The position numbers are program-made. A stretch of 64,000 nucleotides of DNA, taken from the NCBI RefSeq assembly GCF_057098645.1, contig NZ_CM169472.1. One strand, given 5' to 3'. Below, piece by piece: positions 1 through 3,000 of this stretch; positions within the stretch are counted from its first letter, which is position 1, and each line of letters opens with the position of its first letter.

Positions 1-3000
1 TAATCCGCCTCCTGATTGTGTTCGGATGCCGGACGGTAGAACTGAGGTTATCGGAGATCAGCGAGTGGGATTTTACCGAAATGCTCTGGACCGTGCCGAA
101 AGAACACAGCAAAACGAAGGTGGCAATATTCCGGCCCATACCGGAAGCAATACTGCCGTTCGTCACGCAGCTGGTGGAGCAGAACAGGCACACGGGTTTA
201 TTGCTGGGGGAAGTGAAACAGGAAACAAGCGTGTCGCAGTACGGCAGATTAGCGCATAGGAGGCTAAATCACCCTCACTGGTCACTACATGACATCCGGC
301 GCACCTTTACAACGATGCTGAACGATTTAGGCGTGGATCCTCACGTCGTGGAGCAGCTTACAGGCCACCAGATGCCAGGAATGCAGCGAGTTTATAATCA
401 TTCCCGTTATCTGGATGCTAAACGCAATGCGCTGGATATGTGGACGGAGCGGTTAGGGATACTGGCGGGAACACATGAAAACGTAACCACGCTACCAGTA
501 GCCAGAAGAAAATAATTTTTTTCGTGTTTTTTCAGCATGCGCATACTGGATATGCGAACAGATACAACGTGCAACAATGAGCAACAATGTGGAACAACCA
601 CGAACAAGAGGCGAAAAAGCGTACGGATTTATAAGTAGCTGATTTTTAATGCGTTACTGGTTTTTTATACACTAGCGAATCACTCTTTAAAGAGCGAGAA
701 AAAAGGCATGAAACAATATTTTATGCCTTTGTATTAACATGAATTTAAAAGATTTTATTCTTACTGTTTCATTTTCTGTAAATCATACATCCTCAGTATT
801 TGCCATTCATCACTCTAGCGGGAACAATACGACACAATAAGACACCTGATGACTCTTTAAGAAACGAAAGGGGGCAATAGTGTTAAGCACTGATCGGTTT
901 ATACGTGAAAAAGAATGCGAAAAACTAACCGGCCTTAGCCGTACGTGTCGCTACCGCCTGGAAAAGGCCGGACAATTCCCATCACGTCGTAAACTTGGCG
1001 GTCGTTCCGTTGGCTGGTCTTTATCCGAGGTTCTGGCCTGGAAGGATAGCTGCAAGGCAGTTCATTAATCACGCTGGCGGCACGCAGCCGCCACACATCA
1101 ATCATCTGAACACAGAGCTATAACCATGAAGATTGAATATACGCCAGAACGTAGGCGGGGATTCGTTCGCCCTGGTGAAACTGAAAAACAACAAAATTGG
1201 GGTTTTTCAGGCATAACAAAAAGCGCCCAGTTACCTGAGCGCCTTTGTGAACGATTAACCTGCTGCACAAAAAATAAATATGAGCATTGGAATTATATCA
1301 ACTGTGTGAAGAAGCGCCACAATTGCCGGATTACAGGCAAAAAAAATGCGACCTATGATGGTCGCAAAAATATGATATACATGTTGATTACACTATGCAT
1401 CGACAACGATGCCACATTTTTGGCTGGTTGGCAAATCTGTCATCAGGGCGGACAACAACGCCACGATCTCATCTTTCTTGGGCAATTTTTAAGAAAATCC
1501 TCAAGGGCAAATCTTTTTGGCCTTGCTTCCTGTTCATGGTCAGGCATTTCATCCATTTCTCTTAATTTTTTTTCTACCTGTCTTTCAAGTATGGATAATG
1601 CGATTTCCCGTAATTCTTCGTTGTTCATTGTCTACTCCTGTAAAGAAATGCGCCGTAGTTCCTCACACCACGGCGCTGATAGTGATTATTCTGATTCTTT
1701 GGCCTTCCGGCGCTGTTCATATTTTAATTTGCGTCCACAGGCATCTAAGACCCATGCGGAAAAATTAGCACTAGGATTAGTTAATTTTTCTTGTTCAACG
1801 CTGGCATCAATCCCATCTATAAGCTCATGTGGGAATCGAATATTTTTCTTTGCTGATTTGTTGTTTTTGTTACCGCTAGACATTGATGCACCTCACTTAA
1901 ATGGACTTTATGGGCGCACACAATACAGTAAAAAAAATGAGATGTTAAGTATTGACATGTGCGCACACATGATTTTAATCTGTGCGCACAGTTTGAGTTT
2001 TGTTACTCAAATTAAGCAACGCCCCGCAGTGCTCGCAACACATGCAGGGCGTCTAACCACCAACGATAGCAACAGTATCGAGGCAGCTATGAGAAATCAT
2101 ACCACACACCCGCAAGGGCGGGACTCGCACAACCTGAATAAATACATCTGGCGTTTTATCGCCCTGAGCACGGCACAACCGCGCGTGATTACCATTGAGG
2201 CCACCAGCGAACAGGAAGCACGCCAGCAATCTCCGGCTGGCTGCGTGATGGTATTCGCTGCCCGTATTCGTCAGGAGGTGTGCCATGTGCAATAACATCC
2301 GTCCGGACGCAGCCGCCGAAGCCATCATAACGCTAATGCACGCGCTGATTGATATTTCTGTTATCGCAGACATGGCGCATAAGCACGCCACCAGTGAAAC
2401 AGAATATGCCGGGGCTTTCGTTCCTCATTCGCTGGCGGTTATGCAACTTAGTGCGGATATGGCGCTGAATGAGGCCAAAGCCATCCTGATTGCTGATTGT
2501 GAAAATGGGGGGGGGTTATGCGTGATGATCGTTTTAATTCCCTGAAACAGGAATTTTCCGGCGTTCCTGATGATGCGGCTGATGCGCTTTCGTCAATATC
2601 TGAAATTATGCGGGTGGCTTTTTTCTTTCTTTGCACTGATGAGCACAGGGATACAGGGCTAAATATTCTTGATATTGCCGCTAACTATGCTGATTTCGTG
2701 ACAGAAGTTGTTTTAAGAAAAACGACGGACGGGGATTAATATGCGTGATATTTACCTTGAAACAATAGACCGCGCATTTCTTGCACTTTCTCACAGTGAA
2801 AACATGCTGGAAATATTGCGCATATGGCTTGACACGCTTGGAGATAATGAACGCGACAAACAAAAATCAAGAATTGCCACGGCATTAATAACGCTACTTG
2901 AGCCTGTAATAATGGAACTGCAAAAAATAGATCTATTGCACGACAGATATAAAGAACAGCACACCGGAGAATAAAAATAATGAAACTTAAATATTCTGGC

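What the first reader, a model, noticed from the sequence alone, without database searches (positions are those of the whole stretch)
1443..1628. Leftward small acidic ORF of unknown function between alpA and the switch region
This 61-aa ORF has a good AGGAG RBS and is co-oriented with the candidate repressor gene. A two-gene leftward unit in a regulatory region could be an accessory, toxin-antitoxin or anti-helper function. No family was recognised.
Basis: inference. Interest (0 to 1): 0.3.

Follow-up and report, generated by a model that had tools for sequence, protein, structure and literature searches.

The report
Small cassette gene in satellite repressor operon
The 61-codon leftward ORF is a real, conserved but optional small gene of unknown function that follows the candidate repressor gene of an E. 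coli phage satellite, and it lies antisense inside a long rightward reading frame that evolution keeps free of stop codons.

Summary
The ORF is there as described (window 1443-1628, minus strand, ATG, AGGAG 6 nt upstream). It is not acidic: net charge is about 0, with an acidic N-half and a basic C-half. The exact protein is already deposited as a hypothetical protein (WP_001058301.1; 229 contigs).

It belongs to an uncharacterised family of 56-80-aa proteins confined to E. coli/Shigella PICI satellites. N-termini vary; the C-terminus is conserved ((K/R)FALE-F, then a basic tail ending in PP). Substitution patterns show selection on this strand's protein.

In 76% of 74 ylcI-seeded loci a family member lies 57 nt after a YlcI/DUF3950 gene, behind a conserved hairpin with compensatory changes. 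It behaves as an exchangeable cassette: it is sometimes absent, duplicated or replaced, and it assorts freely with YlcI type, whereas operator repeats co-vary with YlcI type. This argues against a toxin-antitoxin pair or a specificity co-repressor.

Unexpectedly, both leftward genes lie antisense inside a 389-codon plus-strand frame (1126-2295) running from alpA to the Icd/Kil-like gene. That frame is open in 73 of 74 loci, matching the P4 eta/kil arrangement.

The function is not established. My best guess is an accessory binding protein made in the quiescent state.

The parts
1443..1628 (-). ORF61: 61-aa small protein, member of the 'FALE-F ... basic PP tail' family; distal cistron of the leftward unit.
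   Evidence: ORF list. Homologues. Selection on the sense-frame protein. AF2 model: helix 3-27, linker, helices 41-48 and 51-57, pLDDT 77. Identical protein annotated as WP_001058301.1.
1635..1639 (-). Shine-Dalgarno AGGAG, 6 nt upstream of the ORF61 ATG.
   Evidence: Read from the sequence. Most relatives have a weaker CAGG at the same place.
1650..1676 (-). Conserved hairpin GCGCCGUGGU-GUGAGGA-ACUACGGCGC followed by AUUUCUUU. Terminator-like attenuator and cassette junction between ylcI and ORF61.
   Evidence: Terminator-like hit. 90% of cells paired, 5 pairs with changes on both sides, 0 of 500 shuffles as good. Energy -21.1 kcal/mol, z = -3.6, on the minus-strand RNA against -14.1, z = -1.65, on the plus strand. 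The element is reused before each tandem paralogue.
1686..1883 (-). ylcI-type gene (65 aa, DUF3950 / YlcI_YnfO_N): candidate Arc-like repressor, first cistron of the leftward unit.
   Evidence: Pfam and NCBIfam matches. Operator-like repeats co-vary with its sequence type. BLASTP to P22 Arc gives E 8e-4 over the strand and helix A (Arc sequence from memory). The AF2 model has low confidence.
1920..1948 (-). Leftward sigma-70-like promoter (TTAACA, 17 nt spacer, TATTGT) for ylcI-ORF61.
   Evidence: Consensus scan. No other minus-strand promoter-like site lies between here and ORF61.
1911..1990 (.). Three operator-like copies of the palindrome TGTGCGCACA (1911-1920 with one mismatch, 1958-1967, 1981-1990). 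They flank or overlap the leftward -10 and a rightward TTGACA (1952-1957) / TTTAAT (1974-1979) promoter, which I read from the sequence.
   Evidence: Palindrome scan and comparison across YlcI types. The rightward promoter is my reading of the sequence and was not listed by the scan.
1347..1366 (-). Intrinsic terminator (UGCGACC..GGUCGCA followed by U8) ending the leftward unit, after a 3' UTR of about 77 nt that is partly conserved among relatives.
   Evidence: The GGCGACC..GGTCGCC TTTGTTTT equivalent is conserved in relatives.
1216..1270 (-). Second minus-strand terminator-like hairpin (GGCGCUCAGGUAACUGGGCGC followed by U5).
   Evidence: Sub-threshold matches to generic terminator-containing Rfam models.
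1126..2295 (+). 389-codon plus-strand frame antisense to ORF61 and ylcI. It is in the same frame as alpA, separated from it only by the alpA TAA (1066-1068), and ends with the Icd/Kil-like domain. It is the analogue of P4 eta.
   Evidence: ORF list. NF033153 phage_ICD_like at aa 340-383, E 1.8e-18; P4 Eta carries the same domain. Between 1069 and 2088 there are 0 stops against 19 and 29 in the other plus frames; the null mean is 12.8 and the product of the per-segment zero-stop probabilities is about 5e-7. The frame is open in 73 of 74 ylcI loci.
2089..2295 (+). Nested Icd/Kil-like gene (68 aa) with its own GAGG RBS; first gene of the rightward operon.
   Evidence: sequence.
880..1068 (+). alpA, the activator of Gram-negative PICIs, immediately upstream of the long frame.
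   Evidence: Pfam Phage_AlpA E 5e-17. Role of AlpA from PMC6092414.

Best explanation
What I consider shown:
- ORF61 is a genuine small protein gene.
- It is the distal, optional cassette gene of the leftward operon that begins with a YlcI-type (probably Arc-like) repressor gene. The element is a capsid-forming PICI satellite inserted in tqsA.

Inferred expression:
- The leftward promoter (1948-1920) transcribes ylcI.
- A conserved hairpin with a U-rich tail (1676-1650) stops part of the transcripts. The rest continue through a strong AGGAG site into ORF61 and end at the terminator at 1366-1347.

The protein (predicted): an N-terminal helix that is free to vary, a linker, and a conserved C-terminal amphipathic helix followed by a basic tail ending in PP.

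The cassette can be absent, duplicated, replaced by an unrelated small ORF, or combined with any repressor/operator type. I therefore infer that it is not part of the immunity-specificity machinery.

Guess at function: an accessory binding protein made while the satellite is quiescent. It would act like the genes co-transcribed with phage repressors, most likely on a helper or competing phage or on a host partner. The conserved C-terminus would be the docking part.

Inferred by analogy with P4 eta/kil:
- Both leftward genes lie antisense inside a long alpA-to-icd reading frame that is kept free of stops.
- On induction, transcripts driven by AlpA would be translated through this frame. Translation would protect them from premature termination and carry them past the repressed rightward promoter.
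- At the same time, the opposing transcription would shut off ylcI and ORF61.

Confidence by part: real gene about 0.85; distal cistron of the ylcI operon about 0.7; the accessory-binding-protein function about 0.35. The overall figure of 0.5 refers to the statement as a whole.
For: Real gene:
- ATG and AGGAG.
- About 50 homologous clusters and 28 representatives at 50% identity.
- Sense frame pN/pS is 0.44 in the C-terminal block.
- In the ungapped C-terminal block, 34.7% of differing codons are conservative replacements in the sense frame against 6.2% in the wobble-sharing antisense frame. Mean BLOSUM62 is 2.07 against 0.66. Six-fold first-base synonymous switches number 43 against 9.
- Copies outside PICIs (L020-L022) keep the ORF while the antisense frame there has 3 stops.

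Operon:
- Fixed 57-nt spacing in many loci.
- No separate promoter-like site.
- Hairpin covariation and strand asymmetry.
- Downstream terminator.

Cassette behaviour:
- 56 of 74 ylcI-seeded loci carry a family member and 18 do not.
- Tandem paralogues occur, and a different small hydrophobic ORF occupies the slot in L081 and L125.
- One ORF type is found with five YlcI types.
- Operator repeats change with YlcI type but not with ORF type.

Antisense frame:
-.
- ICD-like domain shared with P4 Eta.
Against: - No experiment or expression data were available, so translation of ORF61 is inferred.
- The function is a guess. There is no match in Pfam, NCBIfam, PADLOC or PDB, and no fold match.
- pN/pS is only moderately low (0.65 over the whole gene). 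The N-terminal alignments were built on the sense protein, which biases that part of the comparison.
- PGAP leaves the ORF unannotated in strain E110019.
- 24% of modules lack it, so it is dispensable for the satellite life cycle.
- The window copy has a diverged C-terminus (CPRKMRSWRCCPP) compared with the commonest motif, although P0055, P0060 and P0065 share this variant.
- Termination at the hairpin and Rho-dependent effects on the plus-strand transcript are untested.
Confidence: 0.5

Rival explanations
1. ORF61 is a regulator of the switch itself rather than an accessory gene. One version: a small basic RNA-binding protein that acts on the conserved hairpin, either controlling its own read-through or blocking the rightward transcript. 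Another version: an anti-activator that binds AlpA.
For: - The family is basic (pI 9.3-10.8). One subtype carries an arginine-rich stretch, ARKRRRRKK.
- Every copy is preceded by the same structured hairpin with a conserved loop.
- The gene sits in the regulatory hub and is co-expressed with the candidate repressor.
- Whether Gram-negative PICIs have a global repressor is described as unclear in the literature (PMC6092414).
Against: - It is absent from 24% of modules and replaceable by an unrelated ORF. A core regulator should be universal.
- It shows no co-variation with YlcI type, operator type or alpA allele.
- The window copy has an acidic, not arginine-rich, N-half.
Confidence: 0.2
2. ORF61 is not a functional gene. 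It would be a shadow ORF that stays open only because the opposite strand carries the stop-free eta-like frame, which shares its wobble positions.
For: - The antisense frame is open in 24 of 29 unique family ORFs and in 73 of 74 ylcI loci.
- The two frames share third-codon positions, so pN/pS cannot fully separate them: 0.65 against 0.78.
- PGAP omits the ORF in E110019 and annotates the opposite strand in some O157 genomes.
Against: - A conserved ATG and Shine-Dalgarno site sit at a fixed distance from the hairpin.
- Amino-acid-conserving replacements and six-fold codon switches favour the minus-strand protein.
- The plus-strand translation is Cys/Ser-rich and matches no domain before the ICD part.
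- Outgroup copies keep the ORF without the open antisense frame.
- Terminators and the hairpin are oriented for the leftward transcript.
Confidence: 0.08
3. ylcI and ORF61 form a type II toxin-antitoxin or abortive-infection pair, with a ribbon-helix-helix antitoxin followed by a small toxin.
For: - Two small co-oriented genes, the first with an Arc-like N-terminal motif.
- Location in a mobile element.
Against: - A 57-nt spacer with a terminator-like hairpin replaces the tight coupling usual for such pairs.
- The partners assort freely. ORF copies exist without ylcI (L002, L003, L020), and ylcI exists without the ORF (18 of 74 loci).
- YlcI (59-65 aa) has no extension beyond the DNA-binding part.
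- No toxin family or PADLOC match.
Confidence: 0.05

Closest known systems
Unnamed family of 56-80-aa hypothetical proteins of E. coli/Shigella PICIs (e.g. WP_001058301.1, WP_000130015.1; partly PHROG 21027)
   Same: - ORF61 is identical to WP_001058301.1.
- It shares the position 57 nt after ylcI, the hairpin, the N-terminal 'M-N-EEL-EIALSILERQ' type and the 'RFALEDFLKNCP+KMR-WR-PP' C-terminal type with other members.
   Different: - The family has no name, domain model or tested function.
- The window member itself does not reach PHROG 21027.
- It is a mosaic of two subtypes.
P4 eta/kil nested genes and the P4 immunity region (described in PMC10111431; original work by the Deho/Ghisotti group, from my knowledge)
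   Same: - A long frame starts right after the alpA/vis homologue and ends with an ICD/Kil-like domain.
- A promoter internal to the frame drives the nested short gene.
   Different: - P4 Eta carries a Phage_ASH domain, and P4 encodes the CI immunity RNA on the same strand.
- In the window, the part upstream of the ICD domain has no domain. It is the antisense of two protein-coding genes with their own promoter, operators and terminators.
- No C4/isrK-type RNA was found at E up to 5.
P22 immI arc-ant operon (Arc as first gene of an autoregulated operon; from my knowledge)
   Same: - A small Arc-like first gene is followed by a second gene in one operon.
- Palindromic operators overlap divergent promoters.
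   Different: - The second gene is not an antirepressor homologue.
- Similarity to Arc is weak (E 8e-4 in a single comparison), and the fold was not confirmed.
Accessory ('moron') genes co-transcribed with prophage repressors, such as lambda rexAB (from my knowledge)
   Same: - Optional gene in the repressor transcript with its own RBS and terminator.
- Variable content of the slot.
   Different: No defence or exclusion function has been shown, and there is no similarity to known systems.

Membership tests
PICI small-protein family (FALE-F ... basic PP tail) | Conserved C-terminal block: (K/R)FALE-(F/Y)(L/V), a basic run, then PP(G/H) | tested here: met
   Window sequence: RFALEDFLKNCPRKMRSWRCCPP. 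The closest C-termini are P0055 (KFALEEFLKNCPKKMRAWRGIPPH), P0060 and P0065.
PICI small-protein family (FALE-F ... basic PP tail) | Position: 57 nt downstream of a ylcI-type gene, behind the conserved hairpin | tested here: met
   ylcI stop at 1686, ATG at 1628, hairpin at 1676-1650. Same layout in L004, L006-L019, L025 and others.
PICI small-protein family (FALE-F ... basic PP tail) | Match to PHROG 21027 | tested here: not met
   Nine of 22 aligned members match (best E 2.8e-29). The window member gives no PHROG match at E up to 0.1.
Type II toxin-antitoxin pair | Tightly coupled genes that are obligately co-inherited | tested here: not met
   57-nt spacer with a terminator-like hairpin. Free assortment, and each gene is found without the other.
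Type II toxin-antitoxin pair | Homology of one partner to a known toxin or defence family | tested here: not met
   No Pfam, NCBIfam or PDB match. The only PADLOC hit is ZorE2 at E 0.0069 in 2 of 22 members, which I regard as noise.
Type II toxin-antitoxin pair | Toxicity of one product, neutralised by the other | not testable with these tools
   Needs cloning and expression.
P4 eta/kil-type nested read-through frame (for the plus-strand ORF 1126-2295) | ICD/Kil-like domain at the C-terminus of a long frame that starts just after the alpA/vis homologue | tested here: met
   NF033153 at aa 340-383, E 1.8e-18; P4 Eta aa 144-191, E 1.2e-20. The frame starts at the alpA stop, with the first ATG 57 nt later; the distance is 9-105 nt in relatives where alpA is adjacent to the frame.
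P4 eta/kil-type nested read-through frame (for the plus-strand ORF 1126-2295) | Phage_ASH domain and same-strand CI/seqA immunity RNA | tested here: not met
   No Pfam domain in the 389-aa product. No C4/isrK Rfam match at E up to 5 in 500-3500.
P4 eta/kil-type nested read-through frame (for the plus-strand ORF 1126-2295) | Translation of the frame prevents premature transcription termination | not testable with these tools
   The only support is that the frame is kept open: 73 of 74 loci, median 1080 nt; about 5e-7 (product of per-segment zero-stop probabilities) in the window.
Arc/MetJ ribbon-helix-helix repressors (for the upstream gene ylcI) | Ribbon-helix-helix fold | tested here: inconclusive
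   AF2 pLDDT 65, two helices, N-terminus undefined, no fold match. BLASTP to Arc E 8e-4 over 24 residues.
Arc/MetJ ribbon-helix-helix repressors (for the upstream gene ylcI) | Cognate repeated operators at its own promoter region | tested here: met
   Two to three repeats at equivalent positions whose sequence changes with the YlcI type, seen for seven types. Binding itself was not tested.
Intrinsic terminator (hairpin 1676-1650) | GC-rich stem followed by a U-rich tract on the transcribed strand | tested here: met
   10 pairs, 7 of them G-C, tail AUUUCUUU. Covariation. More stable on the minus-strand RNA. Termination efficiency was not tested.

The most novel reading that the evidence does not exclude
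In this large class of E. coli PICIs, the P4-type eta/kil read-through frame has been colonised on its antisense strand by a protein-based immunity module. The module comprises the YlcI repressor, its operators and an exchangeable small-protein cassette such as ORF61. About 1 kb of DNA would then be read as protein on both strands at different stages of the life cycle. ORF61-type proteins would be the variable effectors of the quiescent state, for example factors that recognise a helper or rival phage, or that control read-through. The module would take the place of the P4 CI RNA.
Probability: 0.2. Interest if true: 0.7.

Novelty: new variant of a known kind. Interest (0 to 1): 0.42.

Why it matters
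- How Gram-negative PICIs stay quiescent is unresolved. [quoted passage not shown]
- The unit containing ORF61 offers a concrete, testable candidate for the maintenance side of the switch. It has a YlcI-type DNA binder, type-specific operators and a variable small-protein cassette.
- The stop-free antisense frame links this unit to AlpA-driven induction through a mechanism already known from P4.
- Sequences matching this junction region (window 1400-1700) occur in about 30% of complete E. coli genomes (1642 of 5426).
- The region is annotated inconsistently. The ORF is sometimes missing, and sometimes the opposite strand is called instead. The result therefore also has practical value for annotation.
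- ORF61 by itself remains a small, dispensable gene of unknown function.

Tried and rejected
- Pfam, NCBIfam, PADLOC and PDB sequence searches of ORF61 and 21 relatives gave nothing usable. The PHROGs search gave only PHROG 21027, of unknown function, for 9 of the 22 members and nothing for the window member.
- Foldseek of the AF2 model against PDB gave no match.
- tblastn of two family members against 50,697 phage records gave no match.
- The scan of one genome per GTDB species found a single locus, a probable E. coli contig in a Collinsella MAG. My first alignment was too diverse for that tool.
- Rfam at E up to 5 gave only generic terminator-like, sub-threshold matches and no C4/isrK.
- pN/pS across six frames could not cleanly separate the sense frame from the wobble-sharing antisense frame. 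I replaced it with amino-acid-similarity and six-fold-codon tests.
- The AF2 model of YlcI was too poor for a fold assignment.
- Literature searches for YlcI, DUF3950 and 'Icd-like' with 'satellite' found nothing on function.
- I considered folding a linker fusion of YlcI and ORF61 to probe an interaction. I rejected it as unreliable with unpaired, shallow alignments.
- I considered and rejected the idea that the conserved C-terminal DNA of ORF61 is conserved for the plus-strand protein.
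Full report
**Observation.** The window opens inside an integrase gene and continues with alpA (880-1068, plus strand; Pfam Phage_AlpA E 5e-17). 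On the minus strand there is a 65-aa gene at 1883-1686 that matches DUF3950 (E 4.5e-7) and NCBIfam YlcI_YnfO_N (E 3.5e-16). Fifty-seven nucleotides further on lies the reported ORF, from ATG at 1628 to TGA at 1443, 61 codons. AGGAG lies at 1639-1635, 6 nt from the ATG. The coordinates, length, RBS and orientation are therefore correct. 'Acidic' is not: D+E = K+R = 13 and pI is 6.6. The N-half is acidic and the C-half basic, and relatives have pI 9.3-10.8.

**The element.** The element is a capsid-forming PICI-type satellite inserted in tqsA. It carries int, alpA, a RepA-type helicase, SSB, PerC, major capsid protein, protease, portal, connectors, HNH, terS and terL.

**Is it a gene?** The exact protein is already deposited as a hypothetical protein. 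It is WP_001058301.1 in strain DETEC-S792, and the sequence occurs on 229 contigs. PGAP leaves it out in strain E110019, although the DNA over window 1400-1700 is identical there.

A word-seeded search with four homologues found about 50 clusters of 56-92-aa hypothetical proteins, almost all from E. coli or Shigella. An exhaustive HMMER search of 1.8 billion representatives found only 28. The family shares a C-terminal block: (K/R)FALE-(F/Y)(L/V), a basic run, then PP(G/H). At least four unrelated N-terminal types are attached to it. The window protein combines the 'EELxEIALSILERQ' N-terminus of P0003 with the 'FLKNCP+KMRxWR..PP' C-terminus of P0055.

None of Pfam, NCBIfam, PADLOC or PDB matches the family. 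PHROG 21027 (function unknown) matches 9 of 22 members but not the window member. AF2 predicts helix 3-27, a linker, and helices 41-48 and 51-57 (pLDDT 77). There is no fold match, and no copy was found in 50,697 phage records.

**Which strand is selected?**
- Pooled pN/pS is lowest in the sense frame (0.65). The antisense frame that shares its wobble positions comes second (0.78), so this test alone is weak.
- In the ungapped C-terminal block of ten lineages, differing codons are conservative replacements in 34.7% of cases in the sense frame against 6.2% in that antisense frame.
- Mean BLOSUM62 is 2.07 against 0.66.
- Same-amino-acid switches between six-fold codon families number 43 against 9 (codon table).

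Selection therefore acts on the minus-strand protein.

**Anatomy of the unit.**
- The scan finds one leftward promoter-like site (1948-1920) upstream of ylcI and none between ylcI and ORF61.
- The 57-nt spacer is highly conserved and holds a hairpin (1676-1650) followed by AUUUCUUU. On 17 distinct sequences, 90% of cells pair and five pairs show changes on both sides, which no shuffle out of 500 reached.
- The hairpin is clearly more stable on the leftward RNA: -21.1 kcal/mol, z = -3.6, against -14.1, z = -1.65.
- A strong terminator follows ORF61 at 1366-1347, and another lies at 1270-1216. The first has an equivalent in relatives.

I read this as one operon with a leaky internal terminator. 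That reading is an inference.

**Cassette behaviour.** I seeded a search with ylcI rather than with the ORF. Of 74 distinct loci with enough downstream DNA:
- 56 have a family member at the standard distance and 18 do not.
- Several of the 18 are clean deletions that join ylcI to the conserved 3' UTR and terminator.
- Two loci keep the hairpin and an AGGAG but carry an unrelated small hydrophobic ORF.
- Some loci have two family members in tandem, each behind its own copy of the hairpin.
- One ORF type occurs with five YlcI types. The window's YlcI type occurs with at least three ORF types.

By contrast, the repeats in the divergent promoter region change with the YlcI type:
- TGTGCGCACA, three copies, in the window (1911-1920, 1958-1967, 1981-1990)
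- CTGGAATCCAG
- GTGGCTGACAC
- GTGTATTTCACC
- GGTGTACACC
- GGTGGCCACC

This is the signature of repressor-operator specificity. It makes YlcI (or, strictly, something encoded by that DNA) the likely DNA-binding regulator. Its N-terminus resembles P22 Arc (E 8e-4; Arc sequence from my memory), but the fold was not confirmed.

The pattern also shows that ORF61 does not take part in specificity. Together with the spacer hairpin, and with the fact that each gene occurs without the other, this argues against a toxin-antitoxin pair.

**The unexpected layer.** The plus-strand frame that runs antisense to ORF61 and ylcI is stop-free from the alpA stop codon (1066-1068, same frame as alpA) to 2295. Its first ATG is at 1126, giving 389 codons.
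- Between 1069 and 2088 it has 0 stops, against 19 and 29 in the other two plus frames. A null that permutes codons of the leftward genes and shuffles the non-coding parts expects 12.8 stops. The product of the per-segment probabilities of zero stops is about 5e-7.
- The same frame is open in 24 of 29 unique family ORFs.
- In the ylcI-seeded sample it is open over the whole of ylcI in 73 of 74 loci, with a median run of 1080 nt. The other two antisense frames are open in 0 of 74, with medians of 61 and 102 nt.
- In loci where alpA is adjacent, the frame starts 0-105 nt after the alpA stop. It ends either at the stop of the Icd-like gene (same frame) or at or shortly upstream of that gene's start.
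- Its last 50 residues are the NCBIfam phage_ICD_like domain (E 1.8e-18). P4 Eta (197 aa) carries the same domain after a Phage_ASH domain.

PMC10111431 summarises the P4 case. [quoted passage not shown] Its translation prevents premature termination of transcripts from the upstream late promoter. Kil is the nested short form made from an internal promoter. [quoted passage not shown] AlpA of P. aeruginosa is an antiterminator (abstracts seen).

The window therefore has the P4 eta/kil layout, with two differences. The part upstream of the ICD domain has no domain and is the antisense of a protein-coding module. No C4/isrK-type immunity RNA is detectable.

Family copies that lie outside this context (L020-L022) have three stops in the antisense frame. 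K-12 DLP12 ylcI, next to cos, has no long antisense frame. The constraint is therefore contextual.

**Mechanism proposed.**
- Shown: gene reality, synteny, hairpin structure, cassette behaviour, operator co-variation, and the open antisense frame with its ICD-like end.
- Inferred: YlcI represses the rightward promoter through the palindromes. ORF61 is made at a lower level by read-through of the hairpin during quiescence. AlpA-driven transcripts are translated through the long frame and so reach the replication genes. Convergent transcription then silences the leftward unit.
- Guess, at about one in three: ORF61 is an accessory binding protein, phage- or host-directed, with the conserved C-terminus as the docking part. 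This would be analogous to genes co-transcribed with prophage repressors.

**Verdict.** ORF61 is a real, conserved, optional small gene of unknown function. It is ordinary in itself, but it sits in an unusual region that codes on both strands and bears on the open question of how Gram-negative PICIs are kept silent.

Noticed in passing
window 1069-2295 (+); also L001, L003, L004, L006, L011, L015, L019, L023, L025-L132: A long stop-free plus-strand frame runs from the alpA stop to the Icd/Kil-like gene, antisense to ylcI and ORF61. It is in the same frame as alpA in the window. It is open in 73 of 74 ylcI loci with a median run of 1080 nt. It is the analogue of P4 eta, with no Ash domain in the window copy.
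   Followed up: yes
window 1911-1920, 1958-1967, 1981-1990: The palindrome TGTGCGCACA occurs three times (one copy imperfect) around the divergent promoters. Loci with other YlcI types carry different repeats at the same positions. These are candidate operators that define immunity types.
   Followed up: partly
window about 2019-2052 (+): A conserved GC-rich hairpin (ACGCCCCGCAGTGCTCGCAACACATGCAGGGCGT) lies in the leader of the Icd-like gene. It is present in loci of all YlcI types. No Rfam match was found and its function is unknown.
   Followed up: partly
L081 and L125 (downstream of ylcI, after the hairpin): The slot after the hairpin holds a different small ORF with a hydrophobic N-terminus (MPKLKNCALCAIVLIVAAFILK...) in place of the family gene. 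In other loci the slot is cleanly deleted.
   Followed up: partly
L002 2364-2636 (+), L003 2178-2975 (+), L001 7091-7441 (+): RefSeq annotation of this region is inconsistent. In some O157-type genomes the strand opposite to the family ORF is annotated (WP_001303898.1). Long 'Icd-like' pseudogenes or 116-aa Icd-like calls start inside the promoter region.
   Followed up: partly
L002 about 2096-2275 (-) and L020-L022: A second small ORF sits in tandem behind its own copy of the hairpin (L002). In L020-L022, two family members sit in tandem next to a SIR2_2 gene, in a context that is not a typical PICI; the distal one has no hairpin copy.
   Followed up: no
window 1689-1883 (-), residues 31-54: The YlcI segment LTNPSANFSAWVLDACGRKL resembles PDB 'Protein delta' chains 5jie_B and 5w82_C ([20 protein letters not shown]; E 0.75-1.6). 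This is marginal and was not interpreted.
   Followed up: no
L133 6252-6446 (-) (E. coli K-12 DLP12): K-12 ylcI lies on the strand opposite to the late genes, immediately beside the prophage cos sequence and upstream of nohD. It has no downstream hairpin, no family ORF and no long antisense frame.
   Followed up: partly
window 1629-1690 (-): In the window copy only, the U-rich tail after the hairpin can pair with the AGGAG of ORF61 (AUUUCU / AGGAGU) in the minimum-energy fold. This could mask the ribosome-binding site.
   Followed up: no
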